This document shows, in pieces, positions 654 through 13,562 of a DNA stretch of 24,000 bases (within the stretch, counting starts at the first letter, position 1; the number at the start of each line of letters is the position of its first letter). The stretch is taken from the NCBI RefSeq assembly GCF_018433835.1, contig NZ_JAHDQM010000043.1; one strand, written 5' to 3'. The notes below the pieces were generated by a model that saw only the letters and a list, made by a program, of their open reading frames with translations, was not told the origin of the DNA and did not search any database. A program made the position numbers and the translations under genes. The stretch is from Methanoculleus sp. (lineage in GTDB: Archaea; Halobacteriota; Methanomicrobia; Methanomicrobiales; Methanoculleaceae).

Positions 654-748
654 GAGTGCGCCAAACCCGGTCGCCGGGCGCGAGACCAATACTTTATGTA
701 GAGGCAACGAGAGAGGAGGGGTGGAGCATACAGCCTCCAGGGGGGACC

Positions 749-1354
749 ATGCGAACGAATTACGTGCTATTCATAACCGTTCTGGCTATCGGAGCGGCGG
801 TTCTCGTCTGCGGTTGCACGGGCCCGACAGGGGGTGATGCCCCGAACCAGACGAACGGAACTCCTGCCGAAACGCCGGCCGGCGAGAACCTGACAATCGA
901 CGAGGTTGTGGTCCGGGACGGCAACTTCTCAATCCTCATCCAGGCGCTCGATGCCGCCGGGCTTGAGGGGGCACTCACCGGGCCGGGCCCCTACACGGTC
1001 TTTGCACCCACGGACGAGGCTTTCGGCCGGCTTCCGGAAACCGTAATGGAAGAGCTCTTCGACGATCCGAAGGGCAACCTCGCCGAGATCCTGCTCTACC
1101 ACATGGCTCCGGACAGATACACGGCATCCGACCTCGCCGCAAACGATACCATTGCGACCATACAGGGCAACCCGGCCGCCATCGGCGCCGCCGGCGAGAG
1201 GATGACGGTGGACGGTGCAGAGGTGGTCCGGGCCGATATGTTAGCGGCGAACGGGGTCGTTCATGCCATCGATGCGGTCATGATCCCGCCGGACGTGACT
1301 CTGCAGGCAATGAACGAAACCGCCGCAGGCGTGGCGGCGAACACGACCGGCTGA
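749..1354 (+). CDS. Exported fasciclin (FAS1) domain lipoprotein/glycoprotein
   Basis: ATG 749 opens MRTNYVLFITVLAIGAAVLVCGC, a signal peptide with a lipobox-like VCGC. FAS1 motifs are TVFAPTDEAF, LLYH and NGVVHAID. There are seven N-x-S/T sequons. The ORF-track start at 656 adds 31 non-hydrophobic codons and is less likely. Confidence 0.85.
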   Translation: MRTNYVLFITVLAIGAAVLVCGCTGPTGGDAPNQTNGTPAETPAGENLTIDEVVVRDGNFSILIQALDAAGLEGALTGPGPYTVFAPTDEAFGRLPETVMEELFDDPKGNLAEILLYHMAPDRYTASDLAANDTIATIQGNPAAIGAAGERMTVDGAEVVRADMLAANGVVHAIDAVMIPPDVTLQAMNETAAGVAANTTG

Positions 1355-1646
1355 GGCCCTCCCCGCCCCCTCTCCTACTGTCGGTGCGCCGCAGCGTATA
1401 CATTCCATACACAATAGTGCACAATTTGTATTCGCGCTCGAGAGACCCATTCCCTCAAAGACGGGGTGACACCTCAGAAGCACCCTGAGGAACTCCGGTG
1501 CTGATAATTGAGCCATATCCATCACGGACCCGCACCAGTTGCAAATCTCAACGCAAACCCCAATAACAACTGTTTTCCCACGGCCGCACAAACAGAGAGT
1601 CACAACCGGGAGGGGTCCCGGCTCTCCCGAATCTCTGAGATCGTCC

Positions 1647-4600
1647 ATGCCCCGCTTCAACCTCAGCCCGTCGCTCATCGGCCGGTTCTTCTACCACGAC
1701 TGCGAACGCTACCTCCGCTACCATGCGACCCCGGAGCAGGAGCGCGAGAACGCCGGCATCCCGGCGGCCGCGATCGACACGAGCCCGGTGACGCGAGCCC
1801 TCCTGGATGCAGGCATCCGGTGGGAGGAGGAGGTGATCCGAACGAAACTGGCAGGAAATGTGCGGCTCCCGGACGGGACGGGGCCCCTCTCCGGGCGGTC
1901 GTTCTCCATCGAAGAGAGTTTCAACCTCCTCCCCCGGCTCTCCCCGGGCGAGGCGATCTACCAGGCGACCGTCCCCGTCTCGGTCCACTTCCTGAAGAGC
2001 TACGGTCTCGATCCCGAACTGCACCGGTTCTCCCCCTGCCGTCCCGACCTCGTCAGGCTCGGCGGCGATCGGTGTCTGCAGGTCGTCGATATCAAGGCAA
2101 GTGAGGATCTCAGTGTCAGTCACCGGATCCAGGCGACGCTGTATGCCCTTATCCTCGATCACGCCCTGGATCTGCTCGGGATGGATCTCCGGGTCGACCT
2201 CTCCCGGGCAGGGATCTGGCTCTACGGCGAGGACGAACCGGAACCCTTCGGCCTGCACCTCAACATACGGGTGATCGAGGACTTCCTCCGCCATCGCCTC
2301 CCGGGCATCCTTGCCGGCCCGCCGGAGGAGGTGCCCTGGCATCTCACCTCGCGGTGCGAGTCCTGCGAGTTCTACCCCCACTGCCGCAGGGAGGCGGAGA
2401 CCTCTGCCTCGGTCTCACAGATCCCGGGCCTCTCGTCCATCGGGAGGCGCTACCTCCGGGAAGCACCATGGAACGGCGGCCTCTCCATCAACACGCTCTC
2501 CGACCTGGAGACGTTCCTTCGTGACCCGGAGAGCGACCGCTGCCTCGACAACTGCGGGTCGCTCGCCGGCCAGGGCGACCGCCTGCGGGCGACCGTCCGG
2601 GCGCTCTCCACAGGAGAGGTCGTCGCGCTCGCCGCGACCTCGCGTGCCCTCCTCGTCTACGAGGACATCGGCATCATCCTGACGCTCCAGAAGGACCCCG
2701 TCTCCGGTCGGACATACACTCTCGGGTTCAGGCGGAGCAGGGGCAGGACGGTCTACGGGACGCCCTCGCACGAAGCGATCTTCGTCGCGGAGGACCCCGC
2801 CGACTGCACCCGTGTGCGGCGCGAGTTCGTCCGGACACTCGCCGCAGAACTCGCGACCGTCGACGAGTACAACCGGGGCCGCGATTGGGCCGAGCAAAAG
2901 TCGGTGCAGACCTACGTCTACGACACCTACGAAGAGGAACTCTTCGCCCGGCTGCTCGACGAGGCAATGAAAGACCCCGAAACGGCGGAGGATGCTCTCA
3001 GGCTGCGGTTCTACTACCAGGACCCCGGCATTGCTCTCGGGACCAGCCACCCGAGCACGTCGGTCCCGTTCCCGCTCGTCGTCCTTACGCGCGAGATCCG
3101 GCGGTTGCTTGCGCTTCCCGTCCCGTTCACGCTCCGTCTGCCGGAGGTCCTCGCGGCAATCCCCTCTTCCCGGTTCGCGTACCGGCTCGACCCTGGCAGC
3201 CTCTTCTGGAACGAGCACAGCAACGCTATGAGGAGCGACGCCGTCCTCATGGCGTGGCACGGAGCACGGCCGGAGGCCGCAGACTGGGTCCGGCAGGAGG
3301 TGTCGCGCCGCCTGCTTGCGGGAGGGAGCGTCCTCGACGGGCTCCGCGAACGGGTGAAGGGCAGCCTCGTGCGGTGGCCGGAGAACTTCCGGTTCCCGCG
3401 CCCGTGGGATGCCGCGACGCCGGAGATATCGCGCCTCCTCTTCATTGCGGAGTACGAATCGGCCATGGGTGCCCGGAGGGTACAGGAACTGCGGAGCAGG
3501 CCGCGGGCTGCAAGGATCCGGGACGCCGTCAGCATCCCCGTCAAAAAGAGCGAGGGGAACTTCTGGAAGGTGCTCGCCCCCCTGGACCTCTCGCTCTTCG
3601 AACAGTCGCAGGCGTTCAGCTACCTCCTCGTGCCGGACGGCGATGCGGGTGAGGAGGCCCTCCTCGCATTCGACGACCTCCGCTACCGGAGCAGCCCGAA
3701 CCCCGGGAACAGCGGAGTCTGCTTCGCGAGGGTCCGCGACAACATCGTCGACCGGAAGGCCGGGAAGGTCAGGGGGCTTGTGCTGGAGGTGACGTACGGC
3801 CGTGATCACGCACCCTTCTCCGAGGGCGACCTCGCGGTGCTGCACCCCCGGTTCACCGATTTCACCGCACCGCGCTACGTAGACCGCCTTCTCGCCCTGG
3901 ACGAGCAGCCGGAGAACGCGTTCATCCGTCTCCTCCGGGACCCGCGGGGGTTCGCCGTTCCGGTCGCCGAGCCAGAGGAGGTCGTCGCCGACGCAGAGCG
4001 GCTCGCCCGCGATGCCGGGTTCACGAAAAGCCAGGCCCGGGCATTCCGACAGGTGACGGCGAACCGCCTGACGCTGGTCTGGGGACCTCCCGGGACCGGG
4101 AAGACGCATTTCCTCGCGGCGACCATCCTCTCCCTGGTCAAAGCCCGGCAGGCGCACGGGGAGCGGATCCGGGTGGGGGTGACGGCGTTCACCCACGCCG
4201 CCATCGAGAACCTGCTCGTCAAGGTGCAGGCCTCGGTCGATGAGTTCGACCTTGCCACAGGCCTCCCGATCTACAAGATAAAGGATATCCGGACTCCCGG
4301 GGGCGAGCGGAGCCTTGAGGTGCTGCCCCACGACCGGGCCGATACCGTCGTCGGCTACCCGTCCCTTCTCCTCGGCGGGACGGTGCACAGTTTCGGCAGG
4401 CTCGAGAAGGCCCTCCCGTCCCTCGACCTCCTGATCGTCGACGAAGCGTCGCAGATGAGGCCGGCGGAACTCGCGATGGTGCTCCCGATGCTCGGCGACG
4501 ATGGGCGGCTCGTCCTCGCGGGGGACGACCTCCAGCTCCCCCCGGTCGTCCAGGGGGCGTATCCGGCACCGGTTGACGGGCTCCCGGGGCTCGATGATTC

Positions 4601-5426
4601 CGTCTTCGCCTACCTCCGGCACCGTGACGACCCCGGCAGCCCCGTCTACACCTGCCAGCTCCAGGAGAACTGGAGGATGAACCGCACCCTCTCGGGGTTC
4701 CCGGCGGAGACGCTCTACGGCACCGGGTATGCTCCCGCCACCGACGTGATCGGTCGGCAACGGATTGCCCTTGCCCCGGGTGTGCCGGGGGAGGAATGGA
4801 CCGGGTGGATCCTCGATCCGGCATACCCGCTCGTGCTCTGTATCCTCGAGGGCGTCCGGACGACGGTGGAGAACCGGATCGAGGCGGCGCTGGTCGCGCG
4901 ACTCGCCGGGGCGCTCCGGGAGAGGCTCGTCGACCCCCGCTCGGGGGACCCGTATCCGGCGACGGAGGACGGGGATTTCCGCTTCTGGCGGCACGGCCTC
5001 TTCGTCGTCAGCCCGCACCATGCCCAGATCGGCGCCATCCGGAACCTTCTCGCCGACGTGCGGGCCTGGGAACACCCGCCGTTCGTGGACACCGTCGATA
5101 AGATGCAGGGGCAGGAGGCGGAGGGTGCAATCGTCAGTTACGGCGTAAGCGACGTCGAGACCGCCCTCGCCGAGGCCGAGTTCATCTACAGCAGGAACCG
5201 CCTGAACGTATCGCTGACCCGGAGCCGGGCGAAGTGCGTGGTCTTCCTGCCCCGCCCGCTCCTGGAGCCGCCGCTTGAACTGGTGCAGAACGAGAAGGCG
5301 GCGGCGGGGCTCCGGCACATGCTCGACCTCCAGGAGTTCTGCCGGACCCACGGTGATGCGCGGACATTCGACCTCGACGGCGAGGCAGGGGTCCGACTCA
5401 CGGTGATGCGGGCGCGGGTGGGGTGA
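1647..5426 (+). CDS. Fe-S PD-(D/E)xK (Cas4/AddB/Dna2-type) nuclease fused to an SF1B (Dna2/Upf1-like, AAA_11/AAA_12-type) helicase, 1259 aa
   Basis: N-terminal motifs: Cys19 (YHDCERY), VVDIKAS, QATLYAL (QxxxY), and CX2CX5C (RCESCEFYPHC). C-terminal motifs: Walker A WGPPGTGKTH, Walker B LLIVDEASQM, LAGDDLQLPPV, ENWRMN, VDKMQGQEA, RLNVSLTRSRAK. I chose ATG 1647; the alternative start at 1539 adds 36 unremarkable codons. Confidence 0.9.
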   Translation: MPRFNLSPSLIGRFFYHDCERYLRYHATPEQERENAGIPAAAIDTSPVTRALLDAGIRWEEEVIRTKLAGNVRLPDGTGPLSGRSFSIEESFNLLPRLSPGEAIYQATVPVSVHFLKSYGLDPELHRFSPCRPDLVRLGGDRCLQVVDIKASEDLSVSHRIQATLYALILDHALDLLGMDLRVDLSRAGIWLYGEDEPEPFGLHLNIRVIEDFLRHRLPGILAGPPEEVPWHLTSRCESCEFYPHCRREAETSASVSQIPGLSSIGRRYLREAPWNGGLSINTLSDLETFLRDPESDRCLDNCGSLAGQGDRLRATVRALSTGEVVALAATSRALLVYEDIGIILTLQKDPVSGRTYTLGFRRSRGRTVYGTPSHEAIFVAEDPADCTRVRREFVRTLAAELATVDEYNRGRDWAEQKSVQTYVYDTYEEELFARLLDEAMKDPETAEDALRLRFYYQDPGIALGTSHPSTSVPFPLVVLTREIRRLLALPVPFTLRLPEVLAAIPSSRFAYRLDPGSLFWNEHSNAMRSDAVLMAWHGARPEAADWVRQEVSRRLLAGGSVLDGLRERVKGSLVRWPENFRFPRPWDAATPEISRLLFIAEYESAMGARRVQELRSRPRAARIRDAVSIPVKKSEGNFWKVLAPLDLSLFEQSQAFSYLLVPDGDAGEEALLAFDDLRYRSSPNPGNSGVCFARVRDNIVDRKAGKVRGLVLEVTYGRDHAPFSEGDLAVLHPRFTDFTAPRYVDRLLALDEQPENAFIRLLRDPRGFAVPVAEPEEVVADAERLARDAGFTKSQARAFRQVTANRLTLVWGPPGTGKTHFLAATILSLVKARQAHGERIRVGVTAFTHAAIENLLVKVQASVDEFDLATGLPIYKIKDIRTPGGERSLEVLPHDRADTVVGYPSLLLGGTVHSFGRLEKALPSLDLLIVDEASQMRPAELAMVLPMLGDDGRLVLAGDDLQLPPVVQGAYPAPVDGLPGLDDSVFAYLRHRDDPGSPVYTCQLQENWRMNRTLSGFPAETLYGTGYAPATDVIGRQRIALAPGVPGEEWTGWILDPAYPLVLCILEGVRTTVENRIEAALVARLAGALRERLVDPRSGDPYPATEDGDFRFWRHGLFVVSPHHAQIGAIRNLLADVRAWEHPPFVDTVDKMQGQEAEGAIVSYGVSDVETALAEAEFIYSRNRLNVSLTRSRAKCVVFLPRPLLEPPLELVQNEKAAAGLRHMLDLQEFCRTHGDARTFDLDGEAGVRLTVMRARVG

Positions 5427-5598
5427 GAGGGGCTCATCGGATCGTGCCGTGAGAACAAGGCTGCTGGAACGCCCTCCGGCCCAAAAAGGCGTCTCTTCGC
5501 ATCTGTAAGGGTTTAAATCCTGAGCTTGATCAATGAAATTGGTTTTGAGTCTGTAGCAAATCCATACACGGCTTTCCACCTGATATCGCCACGCACTG

Positions 5599-5622
5599 CC
5601 CCCGCCCCCCCCGGGGCGGGGG
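5599..5622. other. Perfect 10-bp all-G:C hairpin (CCCCCGCCCC / GGGGCGGGGG, loop CCCC)
   Basis: Paired by hand: 5599-5608 is complementary to 5613-5622 with no mismatch. It lies in the 555-bp non-coding gap. Confidence 0.6.
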
Positions 5623-5637
5623 AGGAGCGCGAAGCGC

Positions 5638-5658: not shown

Positions 5659-5981
5659 AACAGTTCCTTAACCAGATCCAAAGCACCTGAGATGGGCGTT
5701 GGAGACAGGGGAGGGGGGAGCATCCCCCCTCAAAGGCTTTCGGCCTTCTCGTGCTCCGTTCCTGTCGGAACATCGCACTCCCCGTCAGCCCCTCCCCCAA
5801 CGGCGATATGCGACTGGCCGAAGGGCAGGAGCACGAGCACCGAGGGTGCGCAGCCCCCACGGTCCAGCGTATCGGGATAACCGGGGAATACCGGGACAAC
5901 AGGGGAAGATTGCAACTCAGGTCATCATCTTACAGGGTATAGGCCCAACCTATTTTCCTCCTGTCAGACAAATGACATACT

Positions 5982-6866
5982 GTGATCGGCAGCCTCGACC
6001 CCGACCAGAACGAGCGCGAACGCCGGCTCCTCGAAGAGATCCGCGAGCAGGGGGCCACCCCGGAGAACATCCGCCTCTTCCGGGACCTCATCCTCTCGTA
6101 CTACCGTGCCCACGGCCGCGACCTCCCCTGGCGGCGGACCACCGATCCCTACCGGATCCTGGTCTCGGAGATCATGCTCCAGCAGACTCAGGTCGAGCGG
6201 GTCGCCGTGAAGTACCGCGAGTTTCTCGAACGATTCCCTGACTTCGAGAGCCTTGCCCGTGCGCCGAAAAGCGAAGTGCTCCTCGCCTGGCAGGGCATGG
6301 GCTACAACCGCCGGGCAATCGCGCTCCAGAAGACCGCACAGCGCGTCGTGGACGAGTACGGCGGCCGGCTCCCGGCCGACGTCGAGACGCTCGCAACCTT
6401 CCCCGGCATCGGGAAGGCGACCGCGTCGGCCATCTGCGCGTACGCGTTCAACATGCCGGTCGTCTACATCGAGACGAACATCCGGCGGATCTTCATCCAC
6501 TTCTTCTTCCAGGACAGGGAGGATGTCCGGGACGACGAGATACTCCCGCTCGTCGAGCAGGCTCTCGACCGTGGAAGCCCGCGGGAGTGGTATAGCGCAT
6601 TGATGGACTACGGCACTGTACTGAAGAAGCGGACGGCGAACCCGAACCGGCGGAGCGCGTCGTACTCCCGGCAGAGCCGGTTCGAGGGATCCGACCGGCA
6701 GGTCAGGGGACGGATACTCGCGCTCGTCCTCGAGGATGGGACGGTCACGGGTGAGGAGGTGGCCGCCCGGGTCGGCGAAGAGCCCGGTCGGGTGAGGAGG
6801 ATCCTCATCGACCTCACGCGGGAAGGGTTCATCGCCGAGAGCGGGGGGACGTATACCTGCAGGTGA
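5982..6866 (+). CDS. MutY/EndoIII-family HhH-GPD DNA glycosylase, atypical: no 4-Cys Fe-S loop, with a C-terminal winged-helix-like tail
   Basis: GTG start. The protein has LPWRRTTDPYRILVSEIMLQQTQV (catalytic Glu context as in MutY), the HhH LATFPGIGKATASAI, then IETNIRRI where MutY has LDGNVKRV. Only 2 Cys occur in the whole protein. Confidence 0.85.
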   Translation: MIGSLDPDQNERERRLLEEIREQGATPENIRLFRDLILSYYRAHGRDLPWRRTTDPYRILVSEIMLQQTQVERVAVKYREFLERFPDFESLARAPKSEVLLAWQGMGYNRRAIALQKTAQRVVDEYGGRLPADVETLATFPGIGKATASAICAYAFNMPVVYIETNIRRIFIHFFFQDREDVRDDEILPLVEQALDRGSPREWYSALMDYGTVLKKRTANPNRRSASYSRQSRFEGSDRQVRGRILALVLEDGTVTGEEVAARVGEEPGRVRRILIDLTREGFIAESGGTYTCR

Positions 6867-6915
6867 GAGCCCCTCCGGCAGGTTGATACCCGTATGGGAT
6901 CATCCCGGGAGAGGC

Positions 6916-7821
6916 ATGAAGATCGGCTACCCGTGCATCAACCGGAGCGTCGGCTGCTCCTCCGGCCGCACGTTCAGGCTCTCCTCCTACTCCGACGAAC
7001 GGCTGGAGGAGACCGTCCGGGAGAACCTCCGCTGTCTTCGTGAGATCCTCCGCTTCAACCGGAGAGAGTGCATCCTCTTCTTCCGGATCGCTTCAGGCCT
7101 CGTGCCGTTCGCGTCGCACCCGGTCTGCACCGCCGCCTGGCAGGACACCTTCGCCGGGACGTTCCGGGAGGTCGGCCGGTTTGTTCGCGAGCACGGGATG
7201 CGGATATCCATGCACCCCGACCAGTTCGTCGTCATCAACGCGAAAGACCCGGGCATCGTAAACAGGAGCGTCGCGGAACTCCGCTATCATGCCGCCGTCC
7301 TCGACGCCATGCACCTTGATGGAAGCGCAAAGGTCCAGATCCACGTCGGCGGCGTATACGGGGACCGGGAGGCGAGCATGGAGCGGTTCGCGAGCGTATA
7401 CTCCCTTCTTGACGAGAACATCCTCCGCCGGCTGGTCGTCGAGAACGACGACTCGCGCTACACACTGGCCGACTGTCTCCGCATCCACGAGGAGACAGGC
7501 GTCCCGGTGCTCTTCGACGTATTCCACCACCGGGTCAACCCTTCGGGCGTCGGGGTTGCCGAAGCAGTCGAACAGTCCGGCGCGACCTGGCGGCCCGAAG
7601 ACGGCATCCCGATGATCGACTACAGCACCCCAATGCCCGGCGGGCGGAGGGGGCGGCACGCAGAGAGCCTTGACGGTGCCGACTTCGAGCGGTTCCTCGC
7701 CGACACCGCGCCGGCGGATATGGACATCATGCTCGAGATCAAGGATAAAGAGAAGAGCGCTCTCGTGGCCGTCGGGATCGCTCGCCGGGACGGGCGGTTC
7801 CTCCTGCCGGCAGAGCGGTAA
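6916..7821 (+). CDS. uvdE: UV damage endonuclease UvdE/UvsE
   Basis: MKIGYPCIN.., RISMHPDQFVVIN, KVQIHVGG, LVVENDD and VLFDVFHH match the TIM-barrel UvdE metal-ligand pattern. ATG 6916 follows GGGAGAGG. The ORF-track start at 6883 is less likely. Confidence 0.9.
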   Translation: MKIGYPCINRSVGCSSGRTFRLSSYSDERLEETVRENLRCLREILRFNRRECILFFRIASGLVPFASHPVCTAAWQDTFAGTFREVGRFVREHGMRISMHPDQFVVINAKDPGIVNRSVAELRYHAAVLDAMHLDGSAKVQIHVGGVYGDREASMERFASVYSLLDENILRRLVVENDDSRYTLADCLRIHEETGVPVLFDVFHHRVNPSGVGVAEAVEQSGATWRPEDGIPMIDYSTPMPGGRRGRHAESLDGADFERFLADTAPADMDIMLEIKDKEKSALVAVGIARRDGRFLLPAER

Positions 7822-7836: not shown

Positions 7837-8262
7837 TCAGGGTGTAACGACGTCTATCGTCGGCGGGACGAGCGCCGCGCTGATGGCGTGGCAGATCCCG
7901 TTGGTGCAGAACGCATCGGCCTCGACGATGGGGACGCTGTTGACGGTGATGCCTTTATCCGACGACCGTATGACAAGGTCGGTCCCGAGGCTCGACCTGA
8001 CGGCGGCAATGCTCCGGAGGTCCTCCGAGGTCAACTGCCCCGGCACGACGTGATAACTCGTGATGAGAAGGAGTTTGTCCGCGTCCTGCCGGATCTCTTC
8101 CATCCGTTCCTTTGGAACCCTCGAAAACGCCTCGTCCGTCGGGACGAAGACCGTGAACGGCCCCCTCTCGCGGAGCATCGGTTCCATGCCCGCTATCCGG
8201 ACGAGTTCGAGAAATACGGTGAGGCTGTTGGAGTCCTCCAGGGTTTCGATGATGTTCTTCAT
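7837..8262 (-). CDS. Single-domain FAS1 (fasciclin) protein without a signal peptide (paralogue 1, 141 aa)
   Basis: MKNIIETLEDSNSLTVFLELV.. has FAS1 motifs FTVFVPTDEAF, SYH and CTNGICHAIS. There is no N-terminal hydrophobic segment. GGAGAG lies 6 nt upstream of the ATG. Confidence 0.85.
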   Translation of the reverse strand: MKNIIETLEDSNSLTVFLELVRIAGMEPMLRERGPFTVFVPTDEAFSRVPKERMEEIRQDADKLLLITSYHVVPGQLTSEDLRSIAAVRSSLGTDLVIRSSDKGITVNSVPIVEADAFCTNGICHAISAALVPPTIDVVTP

Positions 8263-8296
8263 GCTGCTCTCTCCAATCGCATCACTACATGTGCCG

Positions 8297-8308
8297 AATT
8301 ATTTATAC
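8297..8308 (-). promoter_or_regulatory. TATA-like box for FAS1 paralogue 1
   Basis: The minus strand reads GTATAAATAATT, centred about 41 nt upstream of ATG 8262. A GC hairpin (CCGGGGC..GCCCCGG) downstream of paralogue 2 precedes it. Confidence 0.4.
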
Positions 8309-8352
8309 GTTCTCCCGGGGCTCCGGCCGGACGGTGCCGGCCCCGGTCTCTT

Positions 8353-8778
8353 CTATGCAGCAGCAGCCCTCGCAACGGGAGGCAGGAGCAGCATGGAGAC
8401 CGCGTGGCAGATCCCGTTGGTGCACCACGCGTCGGCCTCGACGACCAGCACGTCGTTGACCAGCACTCCCTCCGACGCAACCTCTACGGTCAGGTCTTCA
8501 CCCTGGAGCGACCGCAGGGTCCGTATGCCCAGGAGGTCGATCATGGAATGCACCCCGGGGACGATATGGTAATGCAGGGTCTCGACGAGCCGGTCGGCGT
8601 TCCGGCGGATTGCGTCGAGTTCCGACATAGGTACTGCCCGGAACGCATCGTCTTCCGGGACGAAGAGCGTATAGGGCCCTTCGGTACTCAATCGCTCTTC
8701 CATGCCGGCTGCCCGTACAAGGTCGAGAAACGTGGTAAACGATCCCGATTCCTGCAGAGTCGCGAGGATACTCTTCAT
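8353..8778 (-). CDS. Single-domain FAS1 protein without a signal peptide (paralogue 2, 141 aa)
   Basis: MKSILATLQESGSFTTFLDLV.. has YTLFVPEDDAF, HYH and CTNGICHAVS. I chose ATG 8778 by colinearity with the paralogues. The ORF-track extension to 8904 is Arg-rich and not hydrophobic. Confidence 0.85.
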   Translation of the reverse strand: MKSILATLQESGSFTTFLDLVRAAGMEERLSTEGPYTLFVPEDDAFRAVPMSELDAIRRNADRLVETLHYHIVPGVHSMIDLLGIRTLRSLQGEDLTVEVASEGVLVNDVLVVEADAWCTNGICHAVSMLLLPPVARAAAA

Positions 8779-8813
8779 GCGAACCAACTCCCGGCGGGAG
8801 ATGGAGAGACGGG

Positions 8814-8825
8814 AGTATATAAAAT
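8814..8825 (-). promoter_or_regulatory. TATA-like box for FAS1 paralogue 2
   Basis: The minus strand reads AATTTTATATAC, centred about 42 nt upstream of ATG 8778. Confidence 0.4.
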
Positions 8826-8919
8826 TACGGGTGGTTCTGCTCGGCTCACGGGGCCGGTTTCCGGCATCCCCCGACCCCCGCCGCCGGACGTACCCGGTGC
8901 ACACGCACCTGTGCGGGCT

Positions 8920-9354
8920 TCAGACCCGCCCCCTCACCCGTGCCTCGACCGCTCGCGGCAGGAGCACCCTGTCGATGACGTGATAGATGCCGTTCGTGCA
9001 CTCGACGTCGGGCTGGATGACGGCGGCGTCATTCAGCCGCATCGCCTCCGGAGGCCCCGAGATATCCAGGTGGTCGCCCTGCAGGGTCCTGATCGCCTCC
9101 ATCCGTGCCAGTTCCTGCGTGGTGAGTTTGCCCTGGATCACGTGGTACAGGATCATGCCCTCGAGCCGCCCCCGGTCGTCCGTGATAGCGTCCAGCACCT
9201 CCCGGGGAAACCCGGAATATGCTTCATTCGTTGGGAAAAACGCCGTATACTCCCCCTCTCCCCGGAGGGTCTCCGCCATCCCCCCGGCCTGCAGCATCGC
9301 AACAGAGGTGCTCAATCGGCCGTCTTCCCGGGCAGTCTCAAAGATGCTCTTCAT
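8920..9354 (-). CDS. Single-domain FAS1 protein without a signal peptide (paralogue 3, 144 aa)
   Basis: MKSIFETAREDGRLSTSVAML.. has YTAFFPTNEAY, LYH and CTNGIYHVID. ATG 9354 is preferred; GTG 9360 is possible and adds 2 codons. Confidence 0.85.
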   Translation of the reverse strand: MKSIFETAREDGRLSTSVAMLQAGGMAETLRGEGEYTAFFPTNEAYSGFPREVLDAITDDRGRLEGMILYHVIQGKLTTQELARMEAIRTLQGDHLDISGPPEAMRLNDAAVIQPDVECTNGIYHVIDRVLLPRAVEARVRGRV

Positions 9355-9377
9355 GGACACCCGAATAATTTAGCCCC

Positions 9378-9390
9378 ATATATATAATTA
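9378..9390 (-). promoter_or_regulatory. TATA-like box for FAS1 paralogue 3
   Basis: The plus strand reads CATATATATAATT, about 25-30 nt upstream of the start. This implies a leaderless or very short-leader mRNA. Confidence 0.4.
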
Positions 9391-9458
9391 CGGATATAGC
9401 GGCGCGGCGGGAAAGAAAGGGATTTCTGGCCGGACCGTGAAGTCCTGCCCGCCCGGGC

Positions 9459-9902
9459 TTATTCGCCCGCTGCGTAGGCCTCGAAGGCCTGCGAGAGCGT
9501 CACGAAGGGAACACTGTCAAGGACATGGATAATGCCGTTGTCCGCCTCCAGGTTCCCCTCGAGCACGACGGCCTCGTCCACCTGGGTACCCTGCTCGGTC
9601 TTCCTGACCATGATGGAATTCCCTTCGACGGTCTGCACGACATTCCTCGCGAGCAGCGATTCAAGCGTGCACTTATGCCCGCCGATCGTGAAGAAGTCGA
9701 TCAGGTGCGAGAGCATCTGCTTGTCGTTTAAGATCATTGCCCGGTTCGGCTCGGGGATCGCATCCCATGCCGAGTCGACCGGAGCAAAGAACGTCATCGG
9801 CCCTTCGCCCTGCAGCATCTTCTCCTCGCCGAGGGTTCGGATAATCTCGACAAGCCTTCCGAACCTTCCATCGTTCTGTAACGTATCAAAGATCTTCGCC
9901 AT
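9459..9902 (-). CDS. Single-domain FAS1 protein without a signal peptide (paralogue 4, 147 aa, most divergent)
   Basis: MAKIFDTLQNDGRFGRLVEII.. has MTFFAPVDSAW and DNGIIHVLD. The YH motif is replaced by DFF. There is no N-terminal hydrophobic segment. Confidence 0.8.
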   Translation of the reverse strand: MAKIFDTLQNDGRFGRLVEIIRTLGEEKMLQGEGPMTFFAPVDSAWDAIPEPNRAMILNDKQMLSHLIDFFTIGGHKCTLESLLARNVVQTVEGNSIMVRKTEQGTQVDEAVVLEGNLEADNGIIHVLDSVPFVTLSQAFEAYAAGE

Positions 9903-9942: not shown

Positions 9943-9964
9943 CGTATATATGAATTATTATATT
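9943..9964 (-). promoter_or_regulatory. AT-rich TATA-like region for FAS1 paralogue 4
   Basis: The plus strand reads CGTATATATGAATTATTATATT, 40-60 nt upstream of ATG 9902. An A5 run at 9977-9981 (T5 on the minus strand) just beyond it could terminate the upstream minus-strand operon. Confidence 0.35.
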
Positions 9965-10090
9965 CAGATGGCCATTAAAAACAGGAGAGGTGATGCGTGC
10001 CCCCATCTTCGGGCCGGGCGGCGGGGTCTGTCCTCGCTCCCCGCGAAGGTCCAGTCTTCTCAGGGATCGGACCCGGCAACGGCAAAACCG

Positions 10091-10666
10091 TCATTCGCGA
10101 ATCAGGTCGCCGATATACCGCTCGAGGAGCTCGAGCGCCTCCCATTCCCGGGCGCCGCCGCACTTCCGGGCGAGACCGGTGTGGTGCTCGATCAGCCGCC
10201 TGAGCCACGGGTCGCGGCTCCTGACGTAGCGGGTGGCATGGACCGTTGCGTCCACGATGCTTGAGAACCCCCGGTTCACCGGGTGCAGCCGCAGGTCGAG
10301 CACCTCTTCGTGAACGGGGACGAGCCGGACGACGAGCGCCTCGTCGCTCGACCGCTCCACGTCGGCGGCAAACGCGGCCCAGGCTTCCGCGTCGCGGAGG
10401 CGGCAGACGACCATCCCGTCGATCTCTTCGGAGACGAAGGCCTCTTCCGGAAGGTCGTCGAAAGCGGTCCGGACGTAGATCACGGGATCGAAGACGAAGT
10501 TCGCCACCACCCAGCGGTCCCGGGCGATGTTCTTCGCCGTATGGCTCCCCCGGAAGAGGACCATGTGCAGGGAGCCGCTCCGGTTGATGATCCCCATGGG
10601 GGCGGCGTTGCAGTCGGTGGTCGCGATCACCTCGTTGATCCCCTCGGTCAGCAGTCCCACTGCCAT
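10091..10666 (-). CDS. DUF447-like (FMN-binding split-barrel-like) protein, last gene of the operon
   Basis: MAVGLLTEGINEVIATTDCNAAPMGIINRSG.. is the N-terminus I recognise from the DUF447 family found next to CitG homologues in methanogens. ATG 10666 overlaps the upstream stop by 19 nt. The ORF-track extension to 10798 is an Arg-rich shadow. Confidence 0.7.
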   Translation of the reverse strand: MAVGLLTEGINEVIATTDCNAAPMGIINRSGSLHMVLFRGSHTAKNIARDRWVVANFVFDPVIYVRTAFDDLPEEAFVSEEIDGMVVCRLRDAEAWAAFAADVERSSDEALVVRLVPVHEEVLDLRLHPVNRGFSSIVDATVHATRYVRSRDPWLRRLIEHHTGLARKCGGAREWEALELLERYIGDLIRE

Positions 10667-11454
10667 CCCTCCCCGAGCGCCACGTATATCCCGGCGATGG
10701 TTATGTCGGCGATCGAGCCCGGGTTGATGCCGGCGGTGACGCACTCGGCGTCGAAGTCGCGAAGATCGCGCCCTCCGCCGAGCACCTCGGCCGCACACCG
10801 CATCGTCCTCTCCGCCACCGCCTCCCCGTGCTTCTTCGCGATGAAGGTGTCCGGCTCCGATGCGAGGAGGTCGAGGAACGCCGCGACGATCGCTTCACGC
10901 CCACTCCCATGCGAATGCAGCAGGTCCGCGCACCGGCGGGTCAGGGCAAATCCGTTCGTCCACTCGCGGGCGACCATGTCACGGGGCGCCGAGTAGGCCA
11001 TGATGTCGGCAAGGGTCATGCCCCGCTCCCGGATGGCGGCGACCGAGGCCGGGTCGTTCACGTCCAGGTCGTCGCTCTCGGCCATCCGGACCCTCGTGAG
11101 GCCGAACGCCGCGTAAAAATCGATTGCGTCCTCGACATCGGTGCCGGCGACGACCCTCCGTGCCCCGTCGATATCTCCCCCGAGGACGAGGGGGATGAGC
11201 AGGATGAACGCCCCGAAATGGGTGTTTCCCCCGGCATGGTCGTTCGTACGCATGACCGCCTCCCGGATCAGGCTTCCGACCCGGCCGCCGGCCCTCTCGG
11301 CCGTATCGAAGACGGGTCTCGCGAGGATCGTCGAGGCGAGGAAATGCTCGATACGGGTGTCCGGATAGTCGTGGCACCTGTCCACGTTCCCGGGCTTCGG
11401 GTAGGCGCAGACCTCGAACATCATCGCCATCTGCGCACGTTCAGCTCGATTCAT
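10648..11454 (-). CDS. Triphosphoribosyl-dephospho-CoA synthase (CitG/MdcB) family homologue
   Basis: MNRAERAQMAMMFEVCAYPKPGNVDR.. carries the CitG hallmark PKPGxVdR, followed by ..GGNTHFGAFILL... ATG 11454 overlaps the upstream stop (11441-11443) by 14 nt. Confidence 0.8.
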   Translation of the reverse strand: MNRAERAQMAMMFEVCAYPKPGNVDRCHDYPDTRIEHFLASTILARPVFDTAERAGGRVGSLIREAVMRTNDHAGGNTHFGAFILLIPLVLGGDIDGARRVVAGTDVEDAIDFYAAFGLTRVRMAESDDLDVNDPASVAAIRERGMTLADIMAYSAPRDMVAREWTNGFALTRRCADLLHSHGSGREAIVAAFLDLLASEPDTFIAKKHGEAVAERTMRCAAEVLGGGRDLRDFDAECVTAGINPGSIADITIAGIYVALGEGWQWDC

Positions 11455-12580: not shown

Positions 12581-13074
12581 ACTTCTCCATCTTTTGGCGG
12601 TGAGAGAGGATATTGATTTGTATCCAGGCTCGGAAGGTCGTACTCCTCACCGGAGCGGATGAGCGCACAGCAGAGCCGGAAATCGCCTATCGAGATGCCG
12701 GGGACGTTCCCATAATATTGAAGCACCCTATCCCAGGGCATGAGGTATGCCTCTTTCGCTCTCCCCGCACCGAACCGGAACTCGACGGCAAGAAACCCCC
12801 GCCGTCCGGTCCTGCGGATGAAGTCGGTGATCGCGTCTATCTGGTGGACGTTGTTTTTGTCGGAGTGGAAGTGCTGGGAGAAGTAGAGTTTCTTGCCCGA
12901 TATCGACTTGCACTCGATGGCCAGATAGTAGCGGGGGTCGAGGGAGTCCACGAGGACGTCGACGTACTGGGTATTGAATTTGCTCTGTTTGAGCCGGTAG
13001 GCGAACCCGTGAACCTGCCGGCGAGCGAAGAACCGGTTGATGCAGTAGGTGATCTCCCGTTCGAAGTTTGCCAT
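12577..13074 (-). CDS. hjc: Archaeal Holliday-junction resolvase Hjc-type PD-(D/E)xK nuclease with a C-terminal extension (165 aa)
   Basis: It is colinear with Pyrococcus Hjc as I remember it: FEREI (Glu), HGFA, YVDVLV (Asp), YLAIECKS (E-x-K), GFLAVEF. The stop overlaps the next ATG as ATGA (12577-12580). ATG 13074 is preferred over the ORF-track start at 13107. Confidence 0.8.
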   Translation of the reverse strand: MANFEREITYCINRFFARRQVHGFAYRLKQSKFNTQYVDVLVDSLDPRYYLAIECKSISGKKLYFSQHFHSDKNNVHQIDAITDFIRRTGRRGFLAVEFRFGAGRAKEAYLMPWDRVLQYYGNVPGISIGDFRLCCALIRSGEEYDLPSLDTNQYPLSPPKDGEV

Positions 13075-13110
13075 CACATAAGTTTGGGAACGGGCCCATA
13101 AAAACAATCG

Positions 13111-13557: not shown

Positions 13558-13562
13558 AGGAT

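What the first reader, a model, noticed from the sequence alone, without database searches (positions are those of the whole stretch)
1647..5426. Isolated giant Fe-S nuclease / unknown middle / SF1B helicase fusion: archaeal Dna2-like repair enzyme or Nhi-like single-gene defence?
Seen: this is one 1259-codon ORF.
- Nuclease module: the N-terminus carries a complete RecB/Cas4/Dna2-type signature. It has Cys19 (tgc 1701-1703), D-I-K (2088-2096), QATLYAL, and RCESCEFYPHC (CX2CX5C, tgc at 2355, 2364, 2382). This is the 1+3 Cys arrangement known to ligate a [4Fe-4S] cluster in AddB, Cas4 and Dna2. An HhH-like IPGLSSIGRRYL follows.
- Helicase module: the C-terminal ~430 aa carry Upf1/Dna2-like SF1B motifs, with Walker A at 4081-4107.
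- Middle region: the ~550 aa between the two modules have no motif I can name. One exception is a stretch from codon 345 (GIILTLQKDPVSGRTYTLGF ... VQTYVYDTYEEELFARLL). It resembles the RNase H-like exonuclease module that follows the Cas4-like domain in TM0106-type RecB nucleases. The positions expected to hold D-x-E read T-L-Q here, so if homologous the module would be catalytically dead. This is inference.
- Context: the gene sits between 292-bp and 555-bp non-coding flanks, which is unusual in this otherwise tightly packed window.
Nuclease+SF1B fusions occur both as housekeeping Dna2-like enzymes and as the anti-phage Nhi (nuclease-helicase immunity) type. Sequence alone cannot decide between them.
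Basis: partly seen in the sequence, partly recalled or inferred. Interest (0 to 1): 0.7.

Follow-up and report, generated by a model that had tools for sequence, protein, structure and literature searches.

The report
Dna2-like iron-sulfur nuclease-helicase in Methanoculleus
This is a real 1259-residue enzyme that joins an iron-sulfur DNA nuclease to a DNA motor as in eukaryotic Dna2, with a dead exonuclease-like domain between them; its rare, horizontally spread family mostly sits among anti-virus genes, but in this methanogen genus it is a stable chromosomal gene next to DNA-repair genes.

Summary

Across 100 homologues D148/K150, Q162/Y166, C237/C240/C246 and the helicase motifs are invariant, and C19 and D134 are at least 90% conserved. 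AlphaFold gives one compact body (pLDDT 90, pTM 0.86). Its best solved match is mouse Dna2, aligned over the whole length.

The unnamed middle resolves into four parts: a helical linker, an RNase H/DEDD-like domain with T-L-Q in place of D-x-E (predicted inactive), a helical block and a beta-barrel.

It is not Nhi. PADLOC's Nhi model does not hit it, and Nhi has a different nuclease and helicase type. It is also not a canonical Dna2 orthologue.

The family is rare (149 clusters at E<=1e-30). Methanogen members nest among bacterial ones. In 8 of 9 loci outside Methanoculleus it lies in defence or mobile islands (BREX-4, Tiamat, R-M, GmrSD, TA). A split version precedes DpdJ-like helicases, once beside dpdA/dpdB.

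In Methanoculleus it is syntenic in the four genomes checked, diverges at the rate of its neighbours, and sits upstream of HhH-GPD and UvdE.

Repair versus defence stays open, at roughly 45:35. The enzymology is the firmer part of the call.

The parts
1647..5426 (+). Complete gene: 1259 codons plus TGA. It encodes a Dna2-like Fe-S nuclease / SF1B helicase.
   Evidence: Full-length homologues at 34-98% identity.
1647..2411 (+). aa 1-255: PD-(D/E)XK (RecB/Cas4/AddB/Dna2-type) nuclease domain. Catalytic residues: D134 (2046-2048), D148-I-K150 (2088-2096), Q162...Y166 (2130-2144).
   Evidence: D148, K150, Q162 and Y166 invariant and D134 at least 90% in 100 sequences; D134 invariant in the 29-sequence alignment. 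PDDEXK_1 matches 17/19 members and Cas4 5/19. TIGR03491 4e-8.
1701..1703 (+). Cys19, the predicted first [4Fe-4S] ligand.
   Evidence: At least 90% conserved. Also kept in the Dpd-associated split homologues.
2355..2384 (+). C237-x2-C240-x5-C246, the three distal predicted Fe-S ligands.
   Evidence: Invariant in 100 sequences and in the split homologues. The C...CX2CX5C pattern of AddB/Cas4/Dna2 is from established knowledge; PMC5704561 states that Cas4 carries an Fe-S module and is homologous to the RecB, AddB and Dna2 nucleases.
2412..2621 (+). aa 256-325: helical linker containing IPGLSSIGRRYL. It may be HhH-like, but this is unverified.
   Evidence: Helices 264-272, 284-292, 296-300 and 310-322 in the model. 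No HHH HMM hit.
2622..3116 (+). aa 326-490: RNase H / DEDD-exonuclease-like fold, predicted catalytically inactive. T346-L-Q348 (2682-2690) replaces D-x-E; D426 is retained.
   Evidence: Models with pLDDT above 90. Weak Foldseek hits to 3'hExo/ERI1, ESRP1 RNase H-like and PIWI domains. Alignment columns. TIGR03491 alignment reaches aa 401.
3117..3530 (+). aa 491-628: helical block with long helices 544-573 and 592-616. It may be stalk-like.
   Evidence: No named family.
3531..3854 (+). aa 629-736: beta-barrel, resembling the 1B barrel of Upf1-like helicases and the barrel of Dna2.
   Evidence: Six strands between 630 and 734. Foldseek hits to Sen1 and IGHMBP2 from the middle-only model. Upf1-like targets align over about 680 columns.
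4017..5270 (+). aa 791-1208: SF1B helicase core (domains 1A and 2A). Walker A GPPGTGKT 4083-4106, Walker B D932-E933 4440-4445, motif VI T1191-R1192.
   Evidence: AAA_11 2e-19 and AAA_12 8e-17. Mouse DNA2 3.5e-14 by sequence. PADLOC DpdJ PDLC02895 7e-61 to its N-terminal SF1B head. Motif residues invariant.
1535..1646 (+). About 110 nt of upstream sequence conserved across Methanoculleus. It includes an A/T-rich CAATAACAAC box and a hairpin CCGGGAGGGGTCCCGG (1606-1621) about 25 nt before the ATG. Likely promoter plus 5' leader.
   Evidence: Alignment A6 of five Methanoculleus loci. The stem is kept with different sequences in M. caldifontis and M. chikugoensis. Function is inferred.
5982..6866 (+). 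Neighbour (context only): HhH-GPD DNA glycosylase with a C-terminal wHTH. It has its own conserved promoter-like box CCCAACCTATTTT at 5944-5956.
   Evidence: Pfam HhH-GPD 2e-16. Conserved box in alignment A5. Same position in four other Methanoculleus loci, L039, L049, L050 and L051.
6883..7821 (+). Neighbour (context only): UvdE UV-damage endonuclease.
   Evidence: Pfam UvdE 3e-59. Syntenic. UvdE itself is widespread in Methanomicrobiales.

Best explanation
The gene encodes a Dna2-type DNA-end and flap processing machine.

Proposed mechanism. A 5'->3' SF1B motor (aa 791-1208) is rigidly coupled, through a beta-barrel and a helical block, to an N-terminal PD-(D/E)XK nuclease (aa 1-255). That nuclease is braced by a [4Fe-4S] cluster ligated by C19, C237, C240 and C246. 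A free 5' single-stranded end or flap is engaged, and ATP hydrolysis drives the enzyme along the strand. The nuclease cuts the strand. The inserted RNase H/DEDD-like domain has lost the D-x-E metal ligands, so it most likely serves as a nucleic-acid-binding or scaffolding surface and not as a second nuclease.

Origin. The protein belongs to a small, horizontally mobile family that is the fused counterpart of a two-gene pair. That pair is a 771-774-aa nuclease/RNase H-like/barrel protein followed by a DpdJ-like giant helicase with an SF1B head, found on alphaproteobacterial plasmids and once beside dpdA/dpdB. Fused family members outside Methanoculleus lie in defence islands.

Role here. The Methanoculleus lineage acquired the gene once or twice and has kept it as a vertically inherited chromosomal gene. 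In this genus I think its main role is genome maintenance. That would mean resection or removal of 5' flaps and ends, including the nicked intermediates made by the adjacent UvdE and HhH-GPD enzymes, in the way RecBCD/AddAB serve both repair and degradation of unprotected foreign DNA.

Shown versus inferred. Shown: domain architecture, motif conservation, fold similarity, phyletic pattern and gene neighbourhoods. Inferred: Fe-S binding, polarity, substrate, and the biological role.
For: Architecture:
- The motifs are intact and conserved.
- The AF2 model of aa 1-1200 has pLDDT 90.2 and pTM 0.86, so it is one compact body.
- The best solved-structure matches are mouse Dna2 5ean/5eaw/5eax, E 3.5e-27 to 5e-25, aligned over 1050-1314 columns, which covers both the nuclease and helicase regions. 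Dna2 is also the best match by sequence.
- The RNase H-like domain looks dead: T346 and Q348 are conserved and D426 is kept.

Origin:
- Plasmid tblastn finds split homologues.
- The 771-774-aa partners keep C19, D134, DxK, QxxxY and CX2CX5C, and align through to the barrel.
- The downstream 2113-2173-aa proteins are full-length PADLOC DpdJ PDLC02895 (2094 bits) and NCBIfam DpdJ-like with an added SF1B head.
- The Skermanella copy lies next to dpdA, dpdB, queE and queD.

Vertical, maintenance-like behaviour in Methanoculleus:
- The gene is present in M. marisnigri, chikugoensis, horonobensis, sediminis, nereidis, formosensis, oceani and caldifontis.
- The order NHL-redoxin, fasciclin, GENE, HhH-GPD, UvdE, four fasciclins, DUF447, CitG, Dus, CbiX is conserved in L039, L049, L050 and L051.
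- Its protein identity tracks that of its neighbours: 85-88% against 87-94%, and 79% against 77-86%.
- GC content is unremarkable.
- A more divergent Methanoculleus copy (69% identity) sits two genes from RuvB, RuvA and RuvC.
Against: - Nothing biochemical has been shown for any family member.
- HhH-GPD and UvdE have their own conserved promoter-like box and are separated from the gene by 335-555 bp, so this is not an operon.
- The whole region is syntenic in the genus, so adjacency to repair genes could be chance.
- UvdE is common in other Methanomicrobiales that lack this gene, and in Methanogenium it sits next to photolyase instead. UvdE therefore does not need this partner.
- The nearest relatives (Methanosarcina, about 53% identity) and the bacterial members are in defence or mobile islands in 8 of 9 loci examined. 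By guilt by association that points to immunity.
- One strain (MH98A) carries the gene split into 802 + 457 aa, so it is dispensable there, unless that is a sequencing error.
- The TM-score to Dna2 is only 0.32-0.39, so the relative domain placement differs.
Confidence: 0.45

Rival explanations
1. It is a dedicated single-protein anti-virus or anti-plasmid effector, analogous to Nhi but unrelated to it. It would recognise and degrade foreign replication intermediates or free ssDNA ends. The Methanoculleus copy would simply be a defence gene that happens to be stably retained.
For: - The family is rare and patchy: 615, 373 and 149 clusters at E<=1e-3, 1e-10 and 1e-30 among 1.84 billion representatives.
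- The methanogen clade nests among bacterial members at 48-51% identity, which fits horizontal transfer.
- Verified defence neighbours:
  - M. mazei: toxin-antitoxin genes plus BREX type 4, with BrxP at 751 bits, BrxC, PglZ and BrxL.
  - Methanosarcina Mfa9: HepT/MNT, PemK and type I R-M.
  - Competibacteraceae: transposases, BrxC_BrxD, WYL, ParB and DUF932.
  - Syntrophorhabdaceae: UvrD-Cas4 fusion, NERD-UvrD (PADLOC C3a187, 267 bits), WYL and DUF2779.
  - Spirochaete: NERD-UvrD, a Res-like helicase, an N6_N4 methyltransferase and a UvrD-Cas4 fusion. This is the context that PMC5704561 predicts to be defence.
  - P0103: HNH, SNF2, AAA_15/21 and an Eco57I methyltransferase.
  - P0115: Tiamat TmtA at 521 bits, NERD-UvrD, a Shedu domain and a recombinase.
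  - Fibrella: GmrSD, a CAP12 TIR protein, patatin and a TIR-LRR-Roc protein.
- The split relatives belong to Dpd-like loci.
- A preprint notes DNA2-like helicase/nuclease fusions with BRIGADE systems of haloarchaea (10.1101/2025.09.15.676423).
Against: - Conservation across named Methanoculleus species, a fixed locus in the four genomes checked and a neighbour-like substitution rate are atypical of defence genes.
- No recognisable defence gene lies in the 24-kb window.
- No PADLOC model covers the N-terminal 790 aa.
- No experimental validation exists for any member.
Confidence: 0.35
2. It is the archaeal orthologue of eukaryotic Dna2, working at the replication fork in Okazaki-fragment long-flap processing as a core housekeeping gene.
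For: - Its best sequence and fold matches among solved structures are Dna2.
- JGI pipelines label several members 'DNA replication ATP-dependent helicase Dna2'.
- It has the same Cys pattern and the same domain order.
Against: - It is absent from other Methanomicrobiales genera in a search that lists hits down to 34% identity.
- Archaeal and bacterial members share about 50% identity and interleave in the tree.
- The Pfam scan returned only generic PDDEXK_1 and Cas4 models for the nuclease part, both below threshold, and no Dna2-specific family.
- A profile of the nuclease domain finds no solved Dna2 by sequence.
- An extra region of about 300 aa (RNase H-like domain plus helical block) is not accounted for by the Dna2 match.
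- No replication genes lie nearby.
Confidence: 0.05
3. It acts on RNA or RNA:DNA hybrids, for example in R-loop removal or RNA-primed intermediates. The Upf1/Sen1-like motor would translocate on RNA, and the degenerate RNase H-like domain would recognise the hybrid.
For: - The helicase belongs to the Upf1/Sen1/IGHMBP2/MkoA-like group, which includes RNA helicases.
- A conserved but non-catalytic RNase H-like domain is retained under selection: E339 is invariant, and T346, Q348, N409, Q421, Y423 and D426 are at least 90% conserved.
Against: - The nuclease is of the DNA-specific RecB/Cas4/Dna2 type.
- The closest helicase relatives are Dna2 and the DpdJ-type head, both from DNA systems.
- There is no direct evidence for RNA binding.
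Confidence: 0.08

Closest known systems
Eukaryotic Dna2 nuclease-helicase (mouse Dna2, PDB 5EAN/5EAW/5EAX)
   Same: An N-terminal PD-(D/E)XK nuclease bracketed by a C...CX2CX5C Fe-S motif, then a barrel, then a C-terminal SF1B helicase. It is the best sequence match (3.5e-14) and the best fold match (3.5e-27, whole-length alignment).
   Different: About 15% identity and TM-score only 0.32-0.39. This protein has an extra dead RNase H-like domain plus a helical block (aa 326-628). The Pfam scan returned no Dna2-specific family. The phyletic pattern is patchy and shaped by horizontal transfer, not universal.
TM0106-family RecB-like nucleases (NCBIfam TIGR03491)
   Same: A RecB/Cas4-like Fe-S nuclease followed by an RNase H-like module. 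The HMM aligns aa 141-401 to profile positions 108-347 at 4e-8. The Dpd-associated split partner also hits it at 2e-12.
   Different: The score of 32.7 bits is far below the 97.45 cut-off. Here the RNase H-like module lacks D-x-E. The module is extended by a barrel and fused to an SF1B helicase.
Two-gene pair on alphaproteobacterial plasmids: a 771-774-aa nuclease protein followed by a DpdJ-like giant helicase (PADLOC PDLC02895)
   Same: The 771-774-aa protein is homologous to aa 1 to about 770 of this protein, with 26% identity and all nuclease and Cys motifs kept. The SF1B head of the giant helicase is the best PADLOC match of this protein's helicase (7e-61). The window protein therefore looks like the fused form of that pair.
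   Different: There the helicase head is fused to a YprA-type SF2 DpdJ core. The pair comes with two further conserved genes and, in Skermanella, with dpdA/dpdB/queE/queD. The window has no dpd genes and no YprA module.
Nhi (nuclease-helicase immunity, S. epidermidis SERP2475)
   Same: It works on the same plan: a single polypeptide with an N-terminal PD-(D/E)XK nuclease and an SF1B-class helicase, horizontally spread, near defence genes (preprint 10.1101/776245).
   Different: Nhi has an HsdR-like nuclease without Fe-S cysteines, a DUF2075/Dda-like helicase and a VOC-like C-terminal domain, and it occurs in Firmicutes, Bacteroidetes and Proteobacteria. The PADLOC Nhi model (PDLC02372) does not hit this protein at E<=1. 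PF09848 scores only 15 bits against a cut-off of 24.
UvrD-Cas4 fusions, AddAB and RecBCD
   Same: An SF1 helicase coupled to a RecB/Cas4-family nuclease. AddB, Cas4 and Dna2 share the Fe-S module. UvrD-Cas4 fusions are predicted defence components (PMC5704561) and are neighbours of family members in two bacterial loci.
   Different: Those have SF1A (UvrD-like, 3'->5') motors with the nuclease at the C-terminus. Here the motor is SF1B and the nuclease is at the N-terminus.

Membership tests
Dna2 (eukaryotic/archaeal replication-repair nuclease-helicase) | PD-(D/E)XK nuclease with four Cys in a C...CX2CX5C arrangement flanking the active site | tested here: met
   C19, C237, C240, C246 together with D134, D148, K150, Q162, Y166, all conserved. 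Actual cluster binding was not tested.
Dna2 (eukaryotic/archaeal replication-repair nuclease-helicase) | Nuclease N-terminal to an SF1B helicase, with an intervening barrel; overall fold similar to solved Dna2 | tested here: met
   Mouse Dna2 is the top Foldseek hit, aligned over the whole length (E 3.5e-27). TM-score is only 0.32-0.39. The barrel lies at aa 629-736.
Dna2 (eukaryotic/archaeal replication-repair nuclease-helicase) | Sequence membership: a Dna2-specific nuclease model or a nuclease-domain match to Dna2 | tested here: not met
   No Dna2-specific family was returned at E<=1 in the Pfam scan. A profile of aa 1-335 finds no Dna2 chain in the PDB. Only the helicase part matches Dna2 by sequence.
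Dna2 (eukaryotic/archaeal replication-repair nuclease-helicase) | Orthologue-like phyletic pattern: vertical, broadly present in the lineage | tested here: not met
   Among Methanomicrobiales it was found only in Methanoculleus. Methanogen sequences nest among bacterial ones. The family is rare.
Dna2 (eukaryotic/archaeal replication-repair nuclease-helicase) | 5'->3' translocation, ssDNA threading through the nuclease tunnel, 5'-flap cleavage | not testable with these tools
   This needs biochemistry.
Nhi (nuclease-helicase immunity) | Match to the Nhi profile (PADLOC PDLC02372) | tested here: not met
   The model exists in the library (it appears) but is absent from the hits of this protein at E<=1.
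Nhi (nuclease-helicase immunity) | HsdR-like PD-(D/E)XK nuclease, DUF2075/Dda-like helicase and VOC-like C-terminal domain (preprint 10.1101/776245) | tested here: not met
   The nuclease is Cas4/RecB-type with Fe-S Cys. PF09848 scores 15 bits against a cut-off of 24. No VOC/glyoxalase domain is present.
Nhi (nuclease-helicase immunity) | Experimentally shown protection against viruses | not testable with these tools
   A challenge assay is required.
TM0106 family RecB-like nuclease (TIGR03491) | Score above the curated cut-off of the family model | tested here: not met
   32.7 bits against a cut-off of 97.45, E 4e-8, aa 141-401 to profile positions 108-347 of 462. It is related but outside the family.
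TM0106 family RecB-like nuclease (TIGR03491) | RNase H-like C-terminal module with a DEDD-type acidic active site | tested here: not met
   The fold is present, but D-x-E is replaced by the conserved T346-L-Q348. No RNase H-family Pfam model was returned at E<=1.
Dpd system component (DpdJ, PADLOC PDLC02895 type) | Full-length match including the YprA-type SF2 core, and dpdA/dpdB in the neighbourhood | tested here: not met
   Only profile positions 7-459 of 2112 (the SF1B head) match. No dpd genes are in the window. The genuine pair is seen in Skermanella.
SF1B Upf1/Dna2-like helicases (Pfam AAA_11 + AAA_12) | Both Pfam domains above the gathering threshold, with intact Walker A, Walker B and motif VI | tested here: met
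   AAA_11 70.6 bits and AAA_12 61.9 bits, cut-off 27 for each. G813-T820, D932-E933 and R1192 are invariant.

The most novel reading that the evidence does not exclude
The family is an unvalidated single-protein immune effector. It would be the fused form of a nuclease partner plus the SF1B head of DpdJ-like helicases, and its dead RNase H-like domain would sense a foreign nucleic-acid structure such as RNA-primed or ssDNA replication intermediates. In Methanoculleus it would have been domesticated into a core genome-maintenance enzyme. That would be a documented defence-to-repair exaptation, and an archaeal functional stand-in for RecBCD/AddAB-type end processing.
Probability: 0.2. Interest if true: 0.75.

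Novelty: new variant of a known kind. Interest (0 to 1): 0.5.

Why it matters
Nuclease-helicase fusions sit on the border between DNA repair and immunity; RecBCD does both. This family offers a clean case for studying that border, for three reasons.

- It has a Dna2-like architecture, confidently modelled, with an extra degenerate exonuclease-like domain that is conserved but probably non-catalytic.
- It has a clear evolutionary link to a two-gene module of Dpd-like defence loci.
- One archaeal genus holds it as a stable chromosomal gene beside base-excision and UV-nick repair genes.

If it is a defence protein, it adds a new single-gene system that also occurs in methanogens, whose virus defences are little studied. 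If it is a repair enzyme, it would indicate how these methanogens process 5' flaps and DNA ends.

No member has been characterised experimentally. Databases only carry the generic name 'bifunctional RecB family nuclease/DEAD/DEAH box helicase'.

Tried and rejected
- A profile of the nuclease domain (A4) against PDB sequences found nothing relevant; the only hit was a spurious L38 match at E 0.07.
It returned only 6 full-length loci, so it could not provide a presence/absence matrix.
- Rfam found nothing in the window. The long flanks hold no known RNA.
- The 499-aa plus-strand ORF at 7888-9387 and the plus-strand ORFs at 9950-11667 first looked like unknown neighbours. They are antisense artefacts over fasciclin, DUF447 and CitG genes on the minus strand.
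- The Nhi journal paper could not be retrieved by DOI or PMID, so the bioRxiv version was used.
- The idea that the nuclease-helicase, HhH-GPD and UvdE arrived together as one transferred block was considered and not supported. UvdE is widespread in other Methanomicrobiales at about 63% identity and sits elsewhere in Methanogenium.
- A GC anomaly as a sign of recent transfer was looked for. There is none.

Full report

Yes. Window 1647-5426 (+) translates without interruption to 1259 aa plus TGA.
- Cys19 = TGC 1701-1703.
- D-I-K = 2088-2096.
- QATLYAL = 2130-2150.
- RCESCEFYPHC = 2352-2384, with TGC at 2355, 2364 and 2382.
- IPGLSSIGRRYL = 2421-2456.
- T-L-Q = 2682-2690.

The flanking gaps are 292 bp and 555 bp as stated. 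They are two of the three longest gaps in the window.

**2. Are the motifs more than chance?**

The protein search returned 130 homologues, nearly all full length, from 98% down to 34% identity.

In an alignment of 100 of them the following are invariant: D148, K150, Q162, Y166, C237, C240, C246, the Walker A (G813-T820), the Walker B (D932-E933) and motif VI R1192. C19 and D134 are at least 90% conserved.

Pfam detects AAA_11 (2e-19) and AAA_12 (8e-17) above threshold. PDDEXK_1 is sub-threshold for this sequence (3e-3). However, it matches 17 of 19 diverse N-terminal domains of the family, and Cas4 matches 5 of 19 with a best E-value of 5.5e-10. NCBIfam TIGR03491 (TM0106 RecB-like nuclease) aligns aa 141-401 at 4e-8, below its cut-off.

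That condition is not met.

**3. Anatomy**

Two AlphaFold2 models were built with a 100-sequence alignment:
- aa 255-790: pLDDT 91.6, pTM 0.88.
- aa 1-1200: pLDDT 90.2, pTM 0.86.

The high pTM of the long model indicates one compact multi-domain body. From the secondary structure and the searches, the domains are:

| Residues | Assignment |
|---|---|
| 1-255 | PD-(D/E)XK nuclease with the 1+3 Cys |
| 256-325 | Helical linker holding the HhH-like peptide (no HMM support) |
| 326-490 | alpha/beta domain with RNase H-like strand and helix order |
| 491-628 | Helical block with two long helices |
| 629-736 | Six-stranded beta-barrel |
| 791-1208 | SF1B helicase domains 1A and 2A |

Foldseek of the full model against the PDB ranks mouse Dna2 first. 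The entries 5ean, 5eaw and 5eax score E 3.5e-27 to 5e-25. Their alignments span 1050-1314 columns, so they cover both nuclease and helicase, but the TM-score is only 0.32-0.39. Sen1, IGHMBP2 and Upf1 follow, aligning over about 680 columns (barrel plus helicase).

The middle-only model has no PDB hit at E<1e-3. Its best weak hits are 3'hExo/ERI1 (a DEDDh exonuclease), the ESRP1 RNase H-like domain, Argonaute PIWI domains, and the Sen1 and IGHMBP2 accessory regions.

In the alignment the first strand of the RNase H-like domain reads L-T-L-Q, with T346 and Q348 at least 90% conserved where DEDD exonucleases have D-x-E. The Asp after the fourth strand (Y-V-[YF]-D426) is largely kept.

**4. Organism and local context**

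The closest proteins are from Methanoculleus. The window carries coenzyme F430 biosynthesis genes, which fits a methanogen.

After correcting for antisense ORFs, the gene order in the window is:
- NHL-redoxin fragment
- fasciclin
- the nuclease-helicase gene
- HhH-GPD glycosylase with wHTH (5982-6866)
- UvdE (6883-7821)
- four fasciclin genes on the minus strand
- DUF447
- CitG
- a Dus-like gene
- an Hjc-like gene
- CbiX/CfbA and onward

No recognisable defence gene lies in the 24 kb.

**5. Phyletic pattern inside the genus**

Cluster members name M. marisnigri JR1, M. chikugoensis, M. horonobensis, M. sediminis, M. nereidis and M. formosensis. M. oceani and M. caldifontis are named in the homologue list. 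MH98A carries the gene split into 802 + 457 aa.

The same gene order is found in M. oceani, two M. marisnigri-like metagenomic contigs and M. caldifontis. Protein identity tracks that of the neighbours: 85-88% against 87-94%, and for M. caldifontis 79% against 77-86%. GC content is ordinary.

This is vertical inheritance under ordinary purifying selection.

A more divergent Methanoculleus lineage (69% identity) has the gene at another locus, between formate dehydrogenase genes and an MFS transporter followed by RuvB, RuvA and RuvC.

HhH-GPD has its own conserved promoter-like box about 30 nt before its start codon. The nuclease-helicase has a conserved upstream segment of about 110 nt with a hairpin. 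These are therefore separate transcription units.

**6. Phyletic pattern outside the genus**

No other Methanomicrobiales genus appears among hits that reach down to 34% identity. The next relatives are Methanosarcinaceae at about 53%, then Desulfobacterota, Chloroflexota, Spirochaetota, Competibacteraceae and Actinomycetota at 37-51%.

In a distance tree the methanogen sequences form one clade nested among bacterial ones.

An exhaustive HMMER search with aa 1-790 finds only 615, 373 and 149 representative clusters at E<=1e-3, 1e-10 and 1e-30, out of 1.84 billion.

By contrast, the neighbouring UvdE has homologues at about 63% identity in Methanoregula and Methanogenium. In Methanogenium marinum it sits beside photolyase with no nuclease-helicase nearby. 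The nuclease-helicase is therefore a Methanoculleus-specific addition and not an ancestral partner of UvdE.

**7. Neighbourhoods elsewhere**

| Locus | Neighbours |
|---|---|
| M. mazei | PemK, MqsA and nucleotidyltransferase toxin-antitoxin genes upstream; complete BREX type 4 downstream (BrxP 751 bits, BrxC, PglZ, BrxL) |
| Methanosarcina sp. Mfa9 | HepT/MNT, PemK, a DEAD helicase, type I R-M |
| Competibacteraceae | Transposases, BrxC_BrxD, WYL-WCX regulator, Bro-N, ParB, DUF932 |
| Syntrophorhabdaceae | PhdYeFM/ParE, UvrD-PDDEXK fusion, NERD-UvrD (PADLOC C3a187, 267 bits), RecQ, WYL, DUF2779 |
| Spirochaete | RNase T, NERD-UvrD, Res-like helicase with S24 peptidase, N6_N4 methyltransferase, UvrD-PDDEXK |
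| P0103 contig | HNH, SNF2, AAA_15/21, Eco57I-type methyltransferase |
| P0115 contigs | Serine recombinase, Tiamat TmtA (521 bits), NERD-UvrD, ImmA-like genes, a Shedu domain |
| Fibrella (27% identity) | GmrSD, a CAP12 TIR protein, D12 methyltransferase, patatin, a TIR-LRR-Roc protein |
| Ardenticatenaceae | Uninformative |

The Spirochaete arrangement is the one Hudaiberdiev et al. predicted to be defence (PMC5704561).

In total, 8 of 9 loci are defence or mobile islands. A NERD-UvrD helicase recurs in three unrelated bacterial loci.

**8. A split relative in Dpd-like loci**

tblastn of aa 1-790 against plasmids finds 23-29% identical matches.

In Methylobacterium, Skermanella and Caulobacter plasmids the match is a 771-774-aa protein. 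It keeps C19, D134, D-x-K, Q-x3-Y and CX2CX5C, and it aligns through to the barrel.

It overlaps by 4 bp a downstream gene for a 2113-2173-aa protein. That protein is a full-length match to PADLOC DpdJ model PDLC02895 (2094 bits). It consists of an N-terminal SF1B head plus a YprA-type DpdJ core.

That SF1B head is the best PADLOC match of the window protein's helicase, at 7e-61.

In Skermanella the pair follows dpdB, dpdA, dpdB, queE and queD. In Caulobacter it follows ImuA, an SOS-response peptidase, DinB and a 3'-5' exonuclease.

The window protein is therefore best described as the fused form of a nuclease/RNase H-like/barrel protein and its SF1B partner.

A recent preprint also notes large DNA2-like helicase/nuclease fusions accompanying BRIGADE systems in haloarchaea (10.1101/2025.09.15.676423). 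A Salinibaculum megaplasmid carries a 1567-aa protein with the same NCBI name.

**9. How it most likely works**

Taken together, the architecture argues for Dna2-like enzymology. An SF1B motor moves 5'->3' on single-stranded DNA, coupled to an Fe-S-braced RecB-type nuclease that cuts the strand. Polarity, Fe-S binding and substrate are inferred from family knowledge and were not tested here.

The conserved but degenerate RNase H-like domain most likely binds nucleic acid or acts as scaffold.

The biological role is where the evidence divides:
- Family-level evidence points to immunity or conflict with mobile elements: rarity, horizontal transfer, defence islands, and the Dpd-linked split form.
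- Clade-level evidence in Methanoculleus points to genome maintenance: conservation across named species, synteny in the genomes checked, a neighbour-like rate, and adjacency to HhH-GPD/UvdE or to RuvABC.

I rate a maintenance role in this genome slightly ahead, at about 0.45. The model is RecBCD/AddAB, which serve both repair and degradation of foreign DNA. A dedicated defence role comes second at about 0.35. A canonical replication Dna2 orthologue (0.05) and an RNA or R-loop role (0.08) are minor options.

**10. Comparison with known families**

- It works like Dna2 but fails sequence and phyletic tests for orthology.
- It is related to, but scores below the cut-off of, the TM0106 RecB-like family.
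- It matches only the SF1B head of DpdJ-type proteins.
- It is not Nhi. The PADLOC Nhi model does not hit it, and Nhi's domains are different.

**11. Novelty and score**

The family already carries a generic NCBI name but has no experimental characterisation.

The following appear not to be described in the papers I could search: the inserted dead RNase H-like domain, the link to the Dpd-associated gene pair, and the contrast between defence-island residence in most lineages and stable, repair-adjacent residence in one archaeal genus. I class it as a new variant of a known kind, with interest 0.5.

Noticed in passing
window 7837-9902 (minus strand), overlapping the plus-strand ORF 7888-9387: Four tandem fasciclin-domain genes of 141-183 aa lie on the minus strand, and a fifth fasciclin gene is at 656-1354 (+). 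The long 499-aa plus-strand ORF over them has no family hit and is an antisense artefact of the high GC content. The nuclease-helicase/HhH-GPD/UvdE trio is thus bracketed by fasciclin paralogues.
   Followed up: partly
window 5592-5629, 5713-5732 and 5788-5798: The 555-bp spacer after the gene holds G/C-rich palindromes (CCCCGCCCCCCCCGGGGCGGGGG; GGGGAGGGGGGAGCATCCCCCC). They are partly conserved in M. oceani and the M. marisnigri-like contigs. M. caldifontis has CGCGAAG-type repeats there instead. Two draft assemblies (L001, L002) end within about 200 bp of the gene's stop, which suggests the spacer is repetitive enough to break assemblies.
   Followed up: partly
window 1606-1621: A hairpin CCGGGAGGGGTCCCGG lies about 25 nt upstream of the ATG. 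The stem is kept with different sequences in M. caldifontis and M. chikugoensis. It may be a 5'-leader element.
   Followed up: partly
L045 13829-15676; L046 8137-9825; L053 19756-21474: A NERD-UvrD helicase of 562-615 aa (PADLOC C3a187, 267 bits for the L045 copy) is a neighbour of family members in three unrelated bacterial contigs. A UvrD-PDDEXK fusion is a neighbour in two of them. This could be a multi-helicase module.
   Followed up: partly
L055 8995-19491; L057 8989-19788; L058 5004-14852: Three alphaproteobacterial plasmids share a conserved four-gene cassette: a nuclease partner of about 771-774 aa, an SF1B-YprA DpdJ-like protein of about 2100-2170 aa, then two convergent hypothetical genes (about 231 aa and more than 1100 aa). 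Only the Skermanella copy sits next to dpdA/dpdB. The Caulobacter copy sits next to ImuA, DinB and an SOS-response peptidase.
   Followed up: partly
L041 13925-23822: Methanosarcina mazei carries a complete BREX type 4 system (BrxP, BrxC, PglZ, BrxL) immediately downstream of the homologue, with toxin-antitoxin genes upstream.
   Followed up: yes
L040 15021-17099: A divergent Methanoculleus MAG encodes bacterial-type RuvB, RuvA and RuvC two genes downstream of its copy of the nuclease-helicase. That is unusual for an archaeon.
   Followed up: no
L002 (Methanoculleus sp. MH98A), proteins P0129 and P0143: In this strain the gene is annotated as two proteins of 802 and 457 aa. This is either a frameshift pseudogene or a sequencing error.
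   Followed up: no
window 12577-17153: An Hjc-like resolvase-fold gene (12577-13107, minus strand) lies next to a coenzyme F430 biosynthesis cluster: CbiX/CfbA, a CfbE-like gene, a nitrogenase-like CfbC/D gene and a CobB-like amidase. The listed ORF 15477-17153 overlaps 14722-15786 by 310 bp, so its true start is probably later.
   Followed up: no
window 18546-19149: This is the largest non-coding gap in the window (604 bp). It lies between a 405-aa gene with no family hit (17328-18545, minus strand) and a MatE transporter gene. It was not examined.
   Followed up: no
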